In this document: positions 2,578-8,879 of the stretch, one piece after another | Layout of the letters: the number at the start of each line of letters is the position of its first letter | How positions within the stretch are numbered: position 1 is the first letter of the stretch | The notes under the pieces: model-generated | What the model saw: only the letters and a program-made list of their open reading frames with translations | Databases searched by the model: none | Told to the model about the DNA's origin: nothing | Virus record (IMG/VR): IMGVR_UViG_2529292907_000010 | Direction: 5' to 3' (one strand) | From: a virus | Lineage: Duplodnaviria; Heunggongvirae; Uroviricota; Caudoviricetes | DNA length: 9,695 nt | Program-made: the position numbers and the translations under genes

Positions 2578-2763
2578 TTACTTAATTATGTAATTCATAC
2601 CCGAACTCTCTGTTGACAGCCTTCTTCTGCAGGCTTCAATAACCCACGCTGAAAAGTTTCCTGAACCTTTCAGATCAAGAGCGATGTTAATTTGTTCAAT
2701 CATCTGGTTTGGAAATCGGATGTTGCGGGTTGTTGTTCTGCGGGTTCTGTTCTTTGATGACAT
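2578..2763 (-). CDS. Arc/MetJ-like ribbon-helix-helix (RHH) DNA-binding protein, 61 aa
   Basis: Segment NIRFPNQMIEQINIALDLKGSGNFSAWVIEACRRRL follows the RHH pattern (beta-strand N-x-R-[FW]-P, helix A, Gly-containing turn, helix B) and aligns by eye with P22 Arc (NLRWPREVLDLVRKVAEENGRSVNSEIYQRVMESF). Inverted repeats lie upstream of its start on the minus strand. Confidence 0.55.
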   Translation of the reverse strand: MSSKNRTRRTTTRNIRFPNQMIEQINIALDLKGSGNFSAWVIEACRRRLSTESSGMNYIIK

Positions 2764-3157: not shown

Positions 3158-3706
3158 ATGAAGGTTAATAAAAAGAGGCTTGCCGAAATTTTCAACGTGG
3201 ACCCGCGGACGATTGAACGCTGGCAGTCTCAGGGACTCCCTTGCGCCTCCAAAGGTAGTAAGGGCATTGAATCTGTATTTGATACTGCCATGGCAATTCA
3301 GTGGTATGCGCAGAGGGAAACTGATATCGAAAACGAAAAGCTCCGCAAAGAACTGGACGATTTGCGTGCGGCAGCGGAGTCAGATTTACAACCCGGCACC
3401 ATTGACTATGAACGCTACAGGCTCACAAAAGCGCAGGCAGATGCGCAGGAACTGAAAAATGCCCGTGAAGACGGAGTAGTGCTGGAAACTGAACTGTTTA
3501 CCTTCATTCTGCAACGTGTGGCACAGGAGATTTCGGGGATACTTGTGCGTGTGCCGTTGACATTACAGCGTAAATATCCGGACATTTCACCATCACACCT
3601 TGATGTGGTGAAAACTGAAATCGCGAAAGCCTCCAATGTTGCAGCTAAGGCCGGTGAAAACGTGGGCGGGTGGATCGATGATTTCAGACGCGCAGAAGGC
3701 AGCTAA
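3158..3706 (+). CDS. Nu1: Terminase small subunit (gpNu1-like), N-terminal winged-HTH cosB-binding domain
   Basis: 182 aa. [28 protein letters not shown]...[49 protein letters not shown] is near-collinear with lambda Nu1 from memory. Confidence 0.95.
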
Positions 3707-5605
3707 TGCAGCCGGTGCGATAGCTACAGGGCTTTTATCTCTCATTATTCCTGTTCCACTGACGACAGTTCAGTGGGCCAATAAACATTATTACCTTCCT
3801 AAAGAGTCGTCTTATACCCCGGGGCGGTGGGAAACACTGCCGTTTCAGGTTGGCATCATGAACTGTATGGGCAACGATCTGATTCGCACGGTTAACCTGA
3901 TTAAATCTGCCCGTGTTGGTTATACAAAGATGTTGCTGGGAGTGGAGGCTTATTTTATTGAGCATAAATCACGCAACAGCCTTCTTTTTCAGCCCACGGA
4001 CTCAGCTGCTGAAGATTTTATGAAATCTCATGTTGAGCCAACGATAAGGGATGTTCCTGCATTGCTGGAGCTGGCTCCATGGTTCGGAAGAAAACACCGC
4101 GATAATACGCTCACCCTGAAGCGTTTTTCCTCCGGTGTGGGGTTCTGGTGTCTGGGTGGTGCGGCAGCAAAAAACTACCGTGAAAAATCCGTGGATGTGG
4201 TCTGTTATGACGAGCTTTCCTCGTTCGAACCGGATGTTGAAAAAGAGGGTTCGCCAACCCTGCTGGGGGATAAACGTATTGAGGGCTCTGTATGGCCAAA
4301 ATCCATTCGCGGCTCGACGCCTAAAATCAAAGGCTCCTGCCAGATCGAAAAAGCCGCTAACGAGTCGGCACACTTCATGCGTTTTTATGTGCCCTGTCCG
4401 CACTGTGGGGAGGAGCAGTATCTGAAATTTGGCGATGATGCCTCGCCTTTCGGTCTTAAGTGGGAGAAGAATAAGCCAGAAAGTGTTTTCTACCTTTGTG
4501 AGCATCATGGCTGTGTGATCCATCAGTCTGAGCTTGACCAGAGTAACGGGCGGTGGATCTGTGAAAACACGGGCATGTGGACCCGTGACGGCCTGATGTT
4601 TTTCAGCGCCCGGGGTGATGAAATTCCGCCGCCGCGCTCCATCACTTTCCATATCTGGACGGCGTACAGTCCGTTCACCACATGGGTACAGATTGTCTAT
4701 GACTGGCTGGATGCACTGAAAGATCCCAACGGCCTGAAAACCTTTGTGAACACCACGCTGGGCGAGACCTGGGAAGAGGCTGTGGGCGAAAAACTCGATC
4801 ACCAGGTACTGATGGATAAGGTTGTGCGTTACACGGCGGCGGTGCCTGCCCGGGTGGTTTATCTGACGGCGGGCATTGACTCGCAGCGAAACCGTTTTGA
4901 GATGTATGTCTGGGGATGGGCTCCGGGAGAGGAAGCCTTTCTGGTGGATAAAATCATCATTATGGGGCGTCCCGATGAGGAAGAGACGCTGTTACGTGTG
5001 GATGCGGCGATCAACAAAAAATACCGCCATGCAGACGGAACCGAAATGACTATTTCTCGTGTCTGCTGGGACATCGGGGGGATCGATGGCGAAATCGTTT
5101 ATCAGAGGTCAAAAAAACACGGTGTTTTCCGGGTGCTGCCGATAAAAGGCGCATCTGTCTATGGCAAGCCGGTGATCACCATGCCAAAAACCCGCAATCA
5201 GCGGGGCGTGTATCTGTGTGAAGTGGGGACGGACACCGCAAAGAAATTCTCTATGCCCGTATGAAAGCCGATCCCACGCCTGTGGATGAAGCCACGTCGT
5301 ATGCCATCCGTTTTCCTGATGATCCGGAGATTTTTTCGCAGACAGAGGCGCAGCAACTGGTCGCGGAAGAGCTTGTGGAGAAGTGGGAAAAAGGAAAGAT
5401 GCGTCTGCTGTGGGATAACAAAAAGCGGCGTAACGAAGCGCTGGACTGCCTGGTGTATGCCTACGCGGCATTACGTGTGTCCGTGCAACGCTGGCAGCTT
5501 GATCTGGCTGTACTGGCAAAATCCCGGGAAGAAGAGACGACCCGGCCAACCCTTAAAGAACTGGCAGCGAAGCTGTCCGGAGGAGTGAATGGTTACAGTC
5601 GCTGA
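3678..5605 (+). CDS. A: Terminase large subunit (gpA-like), interrupted by an apparent 1-nt frameshift near 5240-5245; possible pseudogene or sequencing error
   Basis: Frame 0 (3678-5264) matches lambda gpA from ...[12 protein letters not shown] through ...[13 protein letters not shown], then stops. The homology continues in the -1 frame ([17 protein letters not shown]...[25 protein letters not shown]... to stop at 5603-5605). The switch occurs in GCAAAGAAATTC; one missing base would restore a single ~641-aa ORF. Likely start ATG 3678, overlapping the Nu1 3' end as in lambda. Confidence 0.88.
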
Positions 5606-5795: not shown

Positions 5796-7384
5796 AACGA
5801 ACGCCTGTCCTGATTGATGTGAACGGCGTTCCGCTTCGTGAGAGTCTCAGCTACAACGGGGGCGGTGCAGGATTTGGCGGGCAAATGGCTGAGTGGTTGC
5901 CACCGGCGCAGAGTGCCGATGCGGCCCTGCTGCCCGCGTTGCGTCTGGGGAATGCCCGGGCAGATGATCTGGTGCGCAATAACGGAATAGCGGCTAATGC
6001 GGTGGCTCTGCATAAGGATCACATTGTCGGGCATATGTTTCTGATCAGCTACCGTCCGAACTGGCGCTGGCTGGGGATGCGGGAGACCGCAGCAAAAAGC
6101 TTTGTCGATGAGGTGGAGGCGGCCTGGTCGGAATACGCCGAAGGGATGTTTGGCGAGATCGACGTGGAAGGAAAACGCACGTTCACGGAATTTATCCGTG
6201 AAGGTGTGGGCGTTCATGCGTTTAACGGCGAAATCTTTGTGCAGCCGGTCTGGGATACGGAAACCACGCAGTTATTCCGTACGCGTTTTAAAGCCGTGAG
6301 TCCGAAACGGGTGGACACGCCTGGACACGGTATGGGGAACCGTTTTCTGCGGGCCGGTGTGGAGGTCGATCGATATGGCCGTGCCGTCGCGTACCATATC
6401 TGTGAGGATGATTTTCCGTTCTCTGGTAGTGGACGATGGGAACGGATCCCGCGTGAACTTCCCACCGGGCGTCCGGCCATGCTGCATATTTTCGAGCCGG
6501 TGGAGGACGGGCAGACCCGTGGGGCTAATCAGTTTTACAGCGTCATGGAACGGCTGAAGATGCTCGATTCCCTGCAGGCAACACAGCTTCAGTCGGCCAT
6601 AGTGAAGGCGATGTATGCAGCGACGATTGAAAGTGAACTTGATACCGAAAAGGCCTTTGAATATATCGCCGGCGCGCCACAGGAGCAGAAGGATAATCCG
6701 CTTATTAATATTCTGGAGAAGTTCTCCAGCTGGTATGACACGAATAACGTGACACTGGGCGGTGTCAAAATTCCGCACCTTTTCCCTGGTGATGATCTGA
6801 AACTACAGACTGCGCAGGATTCAGACAATGGATTTTCTGCGCTTGAACAGGCGCTGCTGCGGTATATCGCCGCCGGTCTTGGCGTTTCCTACGAACAGTT
6901 GTCCCGTGATTACTCGAAGGTCAGTTACTCAAGTGCCCGCGCCTCCGCCAATGAGTCGTGGCGCTATTTTATGGGGCGGCGAAAATTTATTGCGGCCCGG
7001 CTGGCCACGCAGATGTTTTCCTGCTGGCTGGAAGAGGCACTTCTTCGGGGGATTATTCGTCCGCCACGGGCACGTTTTGATTTTTATCAGGCGCGATCAG
7101 CCTGGTCACGGGCAGAGTGGATTGGTGCCGGAAGAATGGCCATTGACGGGCTCAAGGAAGTCCAGGAATCAGTGATGCGCATTGAGGCCGGACTGAGCAC
7201 GTATGAGAAAGAGCTGGCGCTGATGGGCGAGGATTATCAGGACATTTTCCGCCAGCAGGTCAGGGAATCTGCTGAGCGGCAAAAAGCCGGACTCTCACGT
7301 CCGGTGTGGATAGCGCAGGCGTATCAGCAGCAGATAGCGGAGAGTCGCAGGCCGGAAGAGGAGACAACACCACGTGAGACGTAA
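5792..7384 (+). CDS. B: Portal protein (gpB-like)
   Basis: 530 aa with long collinear matches to lambda gpB: GNARADDLVRNNG, FEPVEDGQTRGAN, LQSAIVKAMYAATIESELDT, LLRYIAAGLGVSYEQLSR, WIGAGRMAIDGLKEVQE. Confidence 0.96.
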   Translation: MKRTPVLIDVNGVPLRESLSYNGGGAGFGGQMAEWLPPAQSADAALLPALRLGNARADDLVRNNGIAANAVALHKDHIVGHMFLISYRPNWRWLGMRETAAKSFVDEVEAAWSEYAEGMFGEIDVEGKRTFTEFIREGVGVHAFNGEIFVQPVWDTETTQLFRTRFKAVSPKRVDTPGHGMGNRFLRAGVEVDRYGRAVAYHICEDDFPFSGSGRWERIPRELPTGRPAMLHIFEPVEDGQTRGANQFYSVMERLKMLDSLQATQLQSAIVKAMYAATIESELDTEKAFEYIAGAPQEQKDNPLINILEKFSSWYDTNNVTLGGVKIPHLFPGDDLKLQTAQDSDNGFSALEQALLRYIAAGLGVSYEQLSRDYSKVSYSSARASANESWRYFMGRRKFIAARLATQMFSCWLEEALLRGIIRPPRARFDFYQARSAWSRAEWIGAGRMAIDGLKEVQESVMRIEAGLSTYEKELALMGEDYQDIFRQQVRESAERQKAGLSRPVWIAQAYQQQIAESRRPEEETTPRET

Positions 7385-8879
7385 TCTTTCACACATTATT
7401 GCCGCAGCATTCAATGAACCGCTGCTTCTGGAGCCCGCCTATGCGCGGGTTTTCTTTTGCGCGCTCGGGCGCGAGATGGGGGCAGCAAGTCTTTCGGTAC
7501 CACAACAGCAGGTACAGTTTGATGCTCCCGGAATGCTGGCTGAAACGGACGAGTACATGGCCGGAGGTAAACGACCTGCCCGTGTTTACAGGGTGGTGAA
7601 CGGTATTGCTGTACTGCCGGTGACCGGCACGCTGGTGCACCGGCTGGGTGGTATGCGGCCATTTTCCGGAATGACAGGCTATGACGGTATTGTCGCCTGT
7701 CTTCAGCAGGCAATGGCGGATAGCCAGGTGCGGGGCGTACTGCTGGACATTGACAGTCCGGGCGGGCAGGCCGCCGGCGCGTTTGACTGCGCTGACATGA
7801 TTTACCGCCTCCGTCAGCAGAAGCCGGTCTGGGCACTGTGCAATGACACGGCCTGTTCTGCAGCCATGCTGCTGGCGTCGGCCTGCTCCCGACGGCTGGT
7901 TACCCAGACATCCCGTATCGGTTCCATTGGCGTGATGATGAGCCATGTCAGCTATGCCGGTCATCTGGCGCAGGCCGGTGTGGATATCACGCTGATTTAC
8001 TCAGGGGCGCACAAGGTGGATGGCAATCAGTTTGAAGCGTTGCCGGCAGAGGTTCGCCAGGACATGCAGCAGCGGATTGATGCGGCGCGCCGGATGTTTG
8101 CCGAAAAAGTGGCGATGTTTACCGGTCTGTCTGTTGATGCAGTCACGGGAACAGAGGCCGCCGTTTTTGAAGGTCAGTCCGGCATTGAGGCCGGGCTGGC
8201 GGATGAATTAATCAATGCGTCGGATGCCATCAGTGTGATGGCCACGGCGCTGAACAGTAATGTCAGAGGAGGCACTATGCCGCAATTAACTGCAACGGAA
8301 GCCGCCGCGCAGGAGAACCAGCGAGTGATGGGGATCCTGACATGCCAGGAAGCGAAAGGACGTGAACAGCTTGCCACGATGCTGGCAGGACAACAGGGCA
8401 TGAGCGTTGAACAGGCCCGGGCGATTCTGGCCGCGGCGGCACCGCAGCAGCCGGTGGCATCCGCGCAGAGTGAAGCCGATCGCATTATGGCGTGTGAAGA
8501 AGCGAACGGTCGTGAACAACTGGCGGCAACGCTGGCGGCGATGCCGGAGATGACGGTGGAACAAGCCCGCCCGATCCTGGCGGCTGCACCACTGGCGGAT
8601 GCCGGGCCCTCACTTCGTGATCAGATCATGGCCCTGGATGAGGCAAAAGGGGCAGAAGCGCAGGCTGAAAAACTGGCGGCCTGCCCGGGAATGACCGTGG
8701 AGAACGCCCGGGCTGTGCTGGCTGCGGGATCAGGTAAGGCCGAACCGGTCTCTGCATCCACAACCGCCCTGTTTGAACATTTCATGGCGAATCATTCACC
8801 GGCAGCGGTGCGGGGTGGCGTGTCACAGACGTCAGCAGACGGTGATGCGGACGTGAAAATGCTCATGGCCATGCCATGA
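7374..8879 (+). CDS. C: Head maturation protease / scaffold fusion (gpC-like, S49/ClpP-fold protease domain) with an expanded C-terminal scaffold region
   Basis: GTG start 7374 with GAGGAGA 9 nt upstream. N-terminal 300 aa collinear with lambda gpC (AFNEPLLLEPAYARVFFCAL, NGIAVLPVTGTLV, SPGG, RRLVTQTSRIGSIGVMM). The C-terminal part holds three tandem ~45-50-aa modules where I recall lambda having one. Confidence 0.93.
   Translation: MRRNLSHIIAAAFNEPLLLEPAYARVFFCALGREMGAASLSVPQQQVQFDAPGMLAETDEYMAGGKRPARVYRVVNGIAVLPVTGTLVHRLGGMRPFSGMTGYDGIVACLQQAMADSQVRGVLLDIDSPGGQAAGAFDCADMIYRLRQQKPVWALCNDTACSAAMLLASACSRRLVTQTSRIGSIGVMMSHVSYAGHLAQAGVDITLIYSGAHKVDGNQFEALPAEVRQDMQQRIDAARRMFAEKVAMFTGLSVDAVTGTEAAVFEGQSGIEAGLADELINASDAISVMATALNSNVRGGTMPQLTATEAAAQENQRVMGILTCQEAKGREQLATMLAGQQGMSVEQARAILAAAAPQQPVASAQSEADRIMACEEANGREQLAATLAAMPEMTVEQARPILAAAPLADAGPSLRDQIMALDEAKGAEAQAEKLAACPGMTVENARAVLAAGSGKAEPVSASTTALFEHFMANHSPAAVRGGVSQTSADGDADVKMLMAMP
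8277..8879 (+). CDS. Nu3: Nu3-like scaffolding protein, in-frame nested within the 3' part of C (internal translation start)
   Basis: In-frame ATG 8277 preceded by a strong GAGGAGG (8265-8271), at the position corresponding to the lambda Nu3 internal start (lambda ...SGGRMTKETQ vs here ...RGGTMPQLTA). Encodes the triplicated module region. Confidence 0.5.
   Translation: MPQLTATEAAAQENQRVMGILTCQEAKGREQLATMLAGQQGMSVEQARAILAAAAPQQPVASAQSEADRIMACEEANGREQLAATLAAMPEMTVEQARPILAAAPLADAGPSLRDQIMALDEAKGAEAQAEKLAACPGMTVENARAVLAAGSGKAEPVSASTTALFEHFMANHSPAAVRGGVSQTSADGDADVKMLMAMP

What the first reader, a model, noticed from the sequence alone, without database searches (positions are those of the whole stretch)
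8277..8760. Triplicated scaffold module in the C/Nu3 region, with a strong internal ribosome-binding site
The C-terminal region of C contains three tandem copies of a ~45-50-aa module (conserved core [RD]-[VIQ]-[IM]-[AG]-x-x-x-x-EA-x-G-x-E...LA...P-x-M-[ST]-VE-[QN]-AR-x-[IV]-LAA), with the conserved Met at nt 8328, 8487 and 8628, where I recall lambda C/Nu3 having one. An in-frame ATG at 8277 with a GAGGAGG SD would produce a Nu3-like scaffold made essentially of these repeats. Copy number of a scaffold module could affect assembly stoichiometry, and the repeat is a likely recombination hotspot.
Basis: partly seen in the sequence, partly recalled or inferred. Interest (0 to 1): 0.45.

Follow-up and report, generated by a model that had tools for sequence, protein, structure and literature searches.

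The report
Phage 21 scaffold "Tri box" triplication
The three repeated protein modules and the strong internal start site are real, but they are the "Tri boxes" and nested scaffold gene 6 that were annotated for coliphage 21 in an early GenBank record, here in a 98%-identical E. coli prophage, so the finding is correct but already known.

Summary
Observation confirmed. The 501-aa C-type ORF (7374-8879) carries three tandem ~45-aa modules. They are clearly homologous: pairwise alignment z = 12-16 against shuffles, and module-HMM E about 1e-21 each. An in-frame ATG at 8277 follows GAGGAGG, the strongest Shine-Dalgarno match of any + strand ATG in the window.

Lambda and phi80 have one module; phage 21 and Gifsy-1 have three; another E. 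coli prophage type has four. ATG 8277 aligns with the SD-preceded internal ATG of lambda C.

It is not new. The window is 98% identical to phage 21 (490/501 aa). GenBank M81255 already annotates gene 6 starting at this ATG, its RBS, and "Tri1 box / Tri box / Tri3 box" repeat regions at the same coordinates, marked "function unknown".

The "recombination hotspot" idea is not supported. The copies are 59-68% identical in DNA, third-codon positions are near saturation, and the longest shared in-register run is 8 nt. 1870 of 1875 matching E. coli records keep at least 80% of the region.

What the module does is still unknown. It has no Pfam or NCBIfam model, yet occurs in about 1300 protein clusters, nearly always once. 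Interest is low.

The parts
7374..8879 (+). Gene 5 / C homologue: a head maturation protease fused to the scaffold region (501 aa, GTG start overlapping the end of the portal gene)
   Evidence: ORF list. 98% nt identity and 490/501 aa identity to phage 21 gene 5. phrog_53 'head maturation protease' E = 1e-228.
7809..8252 (+). S49 (SppA-like) serine peptidase domain, aa 146-293. Ser162 lies in ACSAAM, which aligns with lambda NCSAGQ.
   Evidence: Pfam PF01343 E = 1.5e-34. B. subtilis SppA 3rst E = 3.5e-16. Lambda alignment. Ser162 position.
8266..8272 (+). Internal Shine-Dalgarno GAGGAGG, encoded within the C reading frame by the Arg-Gly-Gly codons
   Evidence: Sequence. Duplex energy -12.0 kcal/mol, the strongest of 221 + strand ATGs. 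Annotated as the gene 6 RBS in M81255 and OL657228. Conserved in lambda, phi80, Gifsy-1 and the 4-copy type.
8277..8879 (+). Nested in-frame gene 6 (Nu3 homologue): a 200-aa scaffolding protein identical to the C-terminal 200 aa of gp5
   Evidence: CDS 'gene 6' in M81255 and 'scaffolding protein' in OL657228 map exactly to 8277-8879. phrog_8399 'head scaffolding protein' E = 7e-34 in 3 stretches.
8310..8447 (+). Module 1 (aa 313-358, QENQRVMGILTCQEAKGREQLATMLAGQQGMSVEQARAILAAAAPQ). Contains the Tri1 box, 8344-8447.
   Evidence: HMM hit E = 6e-25. Tri1 box mapping.
8469..8597 (+). Module 2 (aa 366-408, SEADRIMACEEANGREQLAATLAAMPEMTVEQARPILAAAPLA). Contains the second Tri box, 8484-8594.
   Evidence: HMM hit E = 9e-26. 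Tri box mapping.
8610..8738 (+). Module 3 (aa 413-455, SLRDQIMALDEAKGAEAQAEKLAACPGMTVENARAVLAAGSGK). Contains the Tri3 box, 8625-8738.
   Evidence: HMM hit E = 4e-25. Tri3 box mapping.
8739..8876 (+). C-terminal tail (46 aa: ...TTALFEHFMANHSP...DADVKMLMAMP) that follows the last module. A tail of about 40-50 aa follows the module in nearly all relatives.
   Evidence: Alignment A2. Tails of 52 full-length relatives: median 51.5 aa. Predicted helices at Nu3 residues 160-173 and 191-197.

Best explanation
The region is the scaffold part of a phage 21-type head gene pair carried by an E. coli prophage.

Shown:
- The long ORF (gene 5, the lambda C homologue) encodes an S49 serine protease fused to a C-terminal scaffold region.
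- An in-frame ATG at 8277 follows a very strong ribosome-binding site that is conserved across lineages.
- It would give a 200-aa Nu3-type protein (gene 6) identical to the C-terminus of the protease.
- This scaffold contains three anciently duplicated ~45-aa modules, the 'Tri1-3 boxes' of the phage 21 GenBank record, followed by a 46-aa tail.
- The copies are kept alike at the protein level, not the DNA level.

Inferred from the lambda C/Nu3 system:
- The scaffold is made in excess from the internal start.
- Because the protease shares the scaffold's C-terminal region, a few protease molecules co-assemble with the scaffold inside the procapsid.
- After shell assembly the protease degrades the scaffold and itself.

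Modelled: each module is predicted to be a small helical unit of about three short helices, joined to the next by flexible Ala/Pro-rich linkers.

Hypothesis: the modules are interaction units for scaffold-scaffold or scaffold-capsid/portal contacts. Three copies would make the phage 21 scaffold multivalent where lambda has one copy plus a 36-aa low-complexity N-terminal stretch.
For: Identity with phage 21:
- 98% nt identity over 1506 nt and 490/501 aa identical.
- The M81255 features 'gene 6' CDS, RBS and Tri1/Tri/Tri3 boxes map onto 8277-8879, 8266-8270, 8344-8447, 8484-8594 and 8625-8738.
- OL657228 annotates the pair as 'capsid protease/scaffolding protein' and 'scaffolding protein'.
- Synteny is portal - C - decoration - major capsid.

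Protease: Pfam S49 E = 1.5e-34; SppA structures E about 1e-16.

Repeat homology: z = 12-16; three HMM hits in this protein against one in lambda.

Protein-level selection: identity between copies is 70-83% at codon positions 1+2 and 34-37% at position 3. The three positions are orthologously conserved in 20 relatives down to 44% identity, including Salmonella.

Internal start:
- Duplex energy -12.0 kcal/mol, the best in the window.
- An AGGAGG-like SD 4-6 nt before an in-frame ATG is conserved in lambda, phi80, Gifsy-1, phage 21 and the 4-copy type.
- The Gly-Gly codons that encode the SD are conserved in most relatives.

Structure: AF2 with an MSA gives pLDDT 73-79 in the modules and below 60 in the linkers, with about three short helices per module.

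Lambda biology from papers:
- C and Nu3 overlap (Shaw & Murialdo 1980, as cited in PMC8508860).
- C-Nu3, Nu3-Nu3 and Nu3-E interactions (PMC3224144).
- gpC is the protease (title of Medina et al. 2010, cited).
Against: - No experiment here shows initiation at 8277 in this prophage.
- RefSeq lambda annotates nu3 at a different internal ATG (5132) that has no SD. The true lambda start is therefore not settled by my data.
- The title of Medina et al. 2011 (seen only in reference lists) calls lambda gpNu3 'intrinsically disordered'. This cautions against the folded mini-domain model. The AF2 confidence is only moderate (mean pLDDT 68, pTM 0.27).
- The terminase gene of this prophage carries a frameshift, so the whole head operon may be non-functional in this host.
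Confidence: 0.9

Rival explanations
1. The modules are not binding units. They are substrate or spacer elements: repeated recognition or cleavage sites for the S49 protease (for example the Ala-rich ...LAAAP... ends), or simply mass and length that fills the procapsid interior. Copy number would then tune scaffold removal or core volume rather than valency.
For: Ala-rich linkers flank each module. The lambda scaffold has a 36-aa low-complexity insert where the phage 21 type has none, as if total length were being compensated. Lambda gpNu3 is reported as intrinsically disordered (title only). C is thought to degrade Nu3 (PMC3224144).
Against: The most conserved columns lie inside the predicted helices (EAKGRE, LA..LA, MT.EQA), not in the linkers. 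The module is the most widely conserved part of the scaffold, found in 1309 clusters. A mere spacer would not be expected to be conserved like this.
Confidence: 0.2
2. The repeat is a DNA- or RNA-level element, such as protein-binding sites, a recombination substrate or a structured RNA, and the protein similarity is a by-product.
For: OL657228 carries two pattern-matched 'CII binding site' features on the opposite strand in this region. Short direct DNA repeats of 15-25 nt are found.
Against: Third-codon-position identity between copies is only 34-37%, against 70-83% at positions 1+2. TRF finds no tandem DNA repeat of this period. The longest in-register exact run is 8 nt. The CII features are consensus pattern matches only.
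Confidence: 0.02
3. The apparent repeat is chance similarity within an Ala/Glu-rich, low-complexity helical region.
For: The region is Ala-rich, and BLAST's low-complexity filter suppresses many matches (one search found only 21 phage records).
Against: Composition-preserving shuffles never reach the observed scores (0 of 2000, z = 12-16). Module HMM E-values are about 1e-21. Each copy has its own orthologues across genera.
Confidence: 0.01

Closest known systems
Coliphage 21 genes 5 and 6 (head-tail preconnector gp5 / scaffold gp6) with Tri1-Tri3 boxes (GenBank M81255; complete genome OL657228, PMC9119081)
   Same: 98% nt identity and 490/501 aa identical. The GTG start, internal RBS, gene 6 start and three repeat boxes all sit at the same coordinates. 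Gene order is the same: portal - 5/6 - shp - major capsid protein.
   Different: There are eleven amino-acid substitutions, eight of them within residues 364-484 of the scaffold part. Here the genes lie in a chromosomal E. coli prophage whose terminase gene carries a frameshift.
Bacteriophage lambda C / Nu3 nested protease-scaffold genes
   Same: S49 protease domain with about 60% aa identity. An in-frame internal ATG with AGGAGG 4 nt upstream at the aligned position. The same module sequence (ENSRIMGILNCEEAHGREEQARVLAETPGMTVKTARRILAAAP) and a C-terminal tail. The same synteny.
   Different: Lambda has one module, not three. It has a 36-aa low-complexity stretch between the internal start and the module that is absent here. 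The product from the aligned start is 131 aa against 200 aa. RefSeq places lambda nu3 at another ATG, 5132.
Salmonella prophage Gifsy-1 gpC homologue (STM2605) and the 4-module E. coli prophage allele (WP_096934546.1, 538 aa)
   Same: Same architecture and a conserved internal SD plus ATG. Gifsy-1 has three orthologous modules at 57% identity.
   Different: The 4-module allele has an extra copy, and its copies are 72-78% nt identical. It occurs in 106 of 5426 complete E. coli genomes.
Nested or fused protease-scaffold arrangements in other viruses: phage P2 per PMC8508860; phage Mu I/Z and herpesvirus UL26/UL26.5 from general knowledge
   Same: The logic is the same. The protease shares the scaffold's C-terminal region and is therefore carried into the procapsid. 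The scaffold is made separately or in excess.
   Different: These proteins belong to different sequence families. None is known to me to carry this 45-aa module, and I did not test them here.

Membership tests
Phage 21 gene 5/6 (C/Nu3-type nested protease-scaffold with Tri boxes) | Near-identity to the phage 21 head operon across the gene | tested here: met
   Megablast gives 97.9% identity over 1506/1506 nt to M81255 and OL657228. 490/501 aa are identical.
Phage 21 gene 5/6 (C/Nu3-type nested protease-scaffold with Tri boxes) | Three Tri boxes at the annotated positions inside gene 6 | tested here: met
The M81255 repeat_region features map to window 8344-8447, 8484-8594 and 8625-8738.
Lambda C/Nu3-type head protease-scaffold | N-terminal S49 (SppA-like) serine peptidase domain with the conserved Ser | tested here: met
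   PF01343 E = 1.5e-34, above its cut-off. SppA 3rst E = 3.5e-16. Ser162 in ACSAAM aligns with lambda NCSAGQ. Catalytic activity was not tested.
Lambda C/Nu3-type head protease-scaffold | In-frame internal translation start with its own Shine-Dalgarno, giving a scaffold identical to the C-terminus of the protease | tested here: met
   The sequence feature is present and conserved in five lineages. Actual initiation is not testable with these tools.
Lambda C/Nu3-type head protease-scaffold | Position between the portal gene and the decoration and major capsid genes | tested here: met
   Window ORFs. RefSeq annotation of the 99.6%-identical relative.
Lambda C/Nu3-type head protease-scaffold | Scaffold function: transient presence in procapsids, removal by the protease | not testable with these tools
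   Known for lambda from the literature (PMC3224144). Inferred here by homology.
P22-type scaffolding protein (C-terminal helix-loop-helix coat-binding domain) | Sequence or structural match to the P22 gp8 coat-binding domain | tested here: not met

The most novel reading that the evidence does not exclude
The ~40-aa 'Tri box' module has been marked 'function unknown' since the phage 21 record and has no Pfam or NCBIfam model. It could be an autonomous interaction mini-domain shared by about 1300 clusters of lambda-like protease/scaffold proteins. Its copy number in E. coli prophages with homologous capsid genes is 1, 3 or 4 (3222, 1870 and 106 of 5426 complete genomes). That number could set scaffold valency, and through it procapsid nucleation or scaffold:capsid stoichiometry, as an adaptive and tunable parameter.
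Probability: 0.25. Interest if true: 0.35.

Novelty: already known. Interest (0 to 1): 0.1.

Why it matters
As a discovery it matters little. The triplication, the nested scaffold gene and its ribosome-binding site are explicit features of an early GenBank record for phage 21, and this allele sits in about a third of complete E. coli genomes.

A useful residue remains. The module's function has never been assigned. It is the most widely conserved piece of lambda-type scaffolds, yet it has no curated family. Natural alleles with 1, 3 and 4 copies, plus a natural half-module deletion, form a ready-made series for testing how scaffold valency affects capsid assembly. The data also flag that RefSeq's lambda nu3 start (5132) lacks the conserved SD that precedes ATG 5342.

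Tried and rejected
- Tandem Repeats Finder and direct-repeat search at the DNA level found no tandem of the module period, only short chance-like repeats. I therefore rejected a DNA-level repeat or recombination hotspot, as further support.
- Pfam and NCBIfam scans of the scaffold part found no family. DUF7178 at E = 0.32 is noise.
- A PDB sequence search matched only SppA/ClpP to the protease domain and nothing to the scaffold.
- Single-sequence AF2 (pLDDT 64) followed by Foldseek against PDB gave nothing at E <= 0.001.
- The search for homologous proteins with the 200-aa scaffold returned mostly partial proteins. I used them only for module counts.
- Literature: the original phage 21 head-operon paper could not be found in the library. 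Medina et al. 2010 and 2011 and Dyson 2023 are not held, so only their titles are cited.
- tblastn of the scaffold against phages is weakened by the low-complexity filter. It returned 21 records and missed lambda, so it was not used as a census.

Full report
WHAT THE WINDOW IS

The window is the late region of a lambdoid prophage. In order it carries lysozyme, the Rz/Rz1 spanins, terminase small and large subunits, W, the portal, a C-type protease, a decoration protein, and the start of the major capsid protein. RefSeq annotation of a 99.6%-identical E. coli chromosome gives the same gene list. The finding lies in the 501-aa ORF at 7374-8879. That ORF has an S49 peptidase domain at aa 146-293 (Pfam E = 1.5e-34; B. 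subtilis SppA structure E = 3.5e-16). It also matches the PHROG 'head maturation protease' end to end (E = 1e-228).

CHECKING THE OBSERVATION

- In-frame ATGs lie at 8328, 8487 and 8628.
- ATG 8277 is preceded by GAGGAGG at 8266-8272, 4 nt upstream.
- The three segments align pairwise with local BLOSUM62 scores of 108, 83 and 97. Composition-preserving shuffles give about 26 +/- 5, so z = 12-16, and 0 of 2000 shuffles reach the observed score.
- A small HMM of the module finds three hits in this protein and one in lambda C.
- The 131-position PHROG scaffold profile that matches the lambda Nu3-type scaffold matches this protein in three stretches.
- The SD-antiSD duplex energy for ATG 8277 is -12.0 kcal/mol. 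This is stronger than any other in-frame start in the ORF and any gene start checked in the window, and it is the best of all 221 + strand ATGs.

WHAT IT IS

A megablast of the ORF against the phage collection finds coliphage 21 at 97.9% identity over the full 1506 nt. The proteins differ at 11 of 501 residues.

GenBank M81255 ('Bacteriophage 21 head gene operon') annotates the following features:
- gene 5 over the whole ORF;
- a putative RBS;
- a nested CDS 'gene 6';
- three repeat_regions named 'Tri1 box', 'Tri box' and 'Tri3 box', each noted 'function unknown; putative'.

Mapped to the window, gene 6 is 8277-8879 and the RBS is 8266-8270. The 2022 complete genome OL657228 (PMC9119081) annotates the same pair as 'capsid protease/scaffolding protein' and 'scaffolding protein', with an RBS. 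The Gifsy-1 record quotes the Swiss-Prot entry 'GP5 [Contains: Scaffold protein GP6...]'.

The triplication and the internal start are therefore on public record. I could not retrieve the original paper, so I rely on the GenBank features.

COMPARISON WITH RELATIVES

Lambda C (439 aa) aligns throughout. It has one module, plus a 36-aa low-complexity stretch between the internal start and the module that the phage 21 type lacks.

Module counts with the HMM:
- lambda: 1
- phi80: 1
- phage 21 and the window: 3
- Salmonella Gifsy-1: 3
- an E. coli STEC prophage allele of 538 aa: 4

All five lineages keep an in-frame ATG preceded by an AGGAGG-like SD at 4-6 nt. The predicted products are 131, 137, 200, 197 and 236 aa. 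The SD is encoded by Gly-Gly codons of the long frame (SGGRM, LGGTM, RGGTM, TGGTM). This dipeptide is conserved in most of 20 aligned relatives, which points to a dual coding constraint.

A profile of 22 modules was searched against 1.84 billion representative proteins. It finds 1309 clusters at E <= 0.001. Among the best 150, a list ranked by total score and so favouring multi-copy proteins, 137 have one module, 10 have two and 3 have three. Of the 52 full-length protease-scaffold proteins in that list, 50 have one. One copy is therefore the rule, and three or four copies mark a small enterobacterial clade.

In complete E. coli genomes the three alleles occur as follows:
- lambda-type, one module: 3222 of 5426 genomes
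- phage 21-type, three modules: 1870 of 5426
- four-module type: 106 of 5426

AGE AND STABILITY OF THE TRIPLICATION

Between copies, nucleotide identity is 59-68%. Identity is 70-83% at codon positions 1+2 and only 34-37% at position 3. The longest in-register exact run is 8 nt, and TRF finds no DNA tandem of this period. Each of the three positions has its own orthologues in relatives down to 44% identity, including Salmonella.

The duplication is therefore old and is maintained by selection on the protein. There is too little DNA identity between copies for ordinary homologous recombination. In line with this, 1870 of 1875 E. coli records with the region keep at least 80% of it.

The one length variant I examined (WP_001253887.1, 482 aa) has a 57-bp in-frame deletion inside module 2, between two CTGGCGGC microhomologies. 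It is not an exchange between modules. The 'recombination hotspot' suggestion is not supported for this allele. In the four-module allele the copies are 72-78% identical, with in-register exact runs of up to 21 nt, which may indicate more recent duplication.

HOW IT MOST LIKELY WORKS

Shown by sequence:
- a protease-scaffold fusion;
- a nested, SD-driven ORF for the scaffold alone;
- three paralogous modules followed by a 46-aa tail.

Inferred by homology with lambda: the scaffold is made in excess, and the protease shares its C-terminal region and so co-assembles into the procapsid, where it later removes the scaffold. The supporting literature is:
- C and Nu3 overlap (Shaw & Murialdo 1980, as cited in PMC8508860);
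- C-Nu3, Nu3-Nu3 and Nu3-E interactions (PMC3224144);
- gpC is the protease (title of Medina et al. 2010).

AlphaFold2 with a 20-sequence alignment predicts each module as about three short helices at pLDDT 73-79. The helices correspond roughly to ..RIMA....LA..LA.. and T-V-E-Q-A-R-x-I-L-A-A. The linkers have low confidence, and two helices are predicted in the tail.

The invariant or near-invariant columns fall inside the predicted helices and turns (A15, G17, E19, A22, A26 invariant; I9, R18, L21, L25, M31, A36, L40, A42 near-invariant), not in the linkers. I therefore favour modules as interaction units arranged like beads on a string, giving a multivalent scaffold.

This is a hypothesis. 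The model is only moderately confident (pTM 0.27). Fold searches give nothing specific. The title of Medina et al. 2011 describes lambda gpNu3 as intrinsically disordered. The main rival is that the repeats are protease substrate sites or length elements. DNA-level and chance explanations are rejected.

VERDICT

Novelty: already known. Interest: low (0.1). The open point is the function of a widespread scaffold module that has no curated family, for which natural 1-, 3- and 4-copy alleles exist.

Noticed in passing
window 3636-5605 (around 5236-5239): The terminase large-subunit gene is split into two ORFs, 3636-5264 and 5261-5605. Compared with the closest E. coli relative, which has an intact gene of 1929 nt (642 codons), the window lacks one A in an A-run (GCAAAAGAAA becomes GCAAAGAAA). 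This is either a frameshift in a defective prophage or a homopolymer sequencing error.
   Followed up: partly
L003 (lambda NC_001416) 5132 versus 5342: RefSeq annotates lambda nu3 from ATG 5132 (201 aa), which has no SD-like sequence upstream. ATG 5342 (131 aa) has AGGAGG 4 nt upstream and aligns with the phage 21 gene 6 start and the conserved internal starts of phi80, Gifsy-1 and the 4-copy allele. PHROGs holds both a 131-position and a 201-position scaffold family.
   Followed up: partly
L004 (NZ_AP022287.1), equivalent to window ~8517-8573: A natural 57-bp in-frame deletion removes half of module 2 (WP_001253887.1, 482 aa). It is flanked by the 8-bp microhomology CTGGCGGC. Protein clusters P0008 and P0009 (4 and 53 members) show the same truncated module.
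   Followed up: yes
L005 / L009 (E. coli GCA_032727965.1; NZ_CP041435.1 2573566-2575182): A four-module allele of the same gene (538 aa, WP_096934546.1). Its copies are 72-78% nt identical, with in-register exact runs of up to 21 nt. It is present in 106 of 5426 complete E. coli genomes and has a different decoration-protein allele downstream.
   Followed up: partly
window 8260-8276 and the homologous positions in relatives: The Gly-Gly dipeptide just upstream of the internal Met (RGGTM here, SGGRM in lambda, LGGTM in phi80, TGGTM in Gifsy-1) is encoded by the GGAGG of the Shine-Dalgarno. It appears to be conserved because of this dual use.
   Followed up: partly
window 8282-8295 and 8516-8529 (- strand), by transfer from OL657228: The phage 21 genome record marks two 'transcription factor CII' binding sites (pattern ttgynnnnnnttgy) on the opposite strand inside gene 6. 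They look like pattern matches only. I did not test them.
   Followed up: no
window 2578-2763 (- strand): A 61-aa ORF between the lysis genes and the terminase genes. The corresponding ORF is annotated in the close relative as a YlcI/YnfO family protein. It is unrelated to the finding.
   Followed up: no
tails of P0123-P0238 (relatives): Downstream of the single module, distant relatives share a loose pattern: a short '(L/F)-D/E-x-x-M ... NP' segment, an acidic/Gly-rich linker and a variable, often basic, C-terminal helix. The module itself is the most conserved part, and the extreme C-terminus varies by clade.
   Followed up: no
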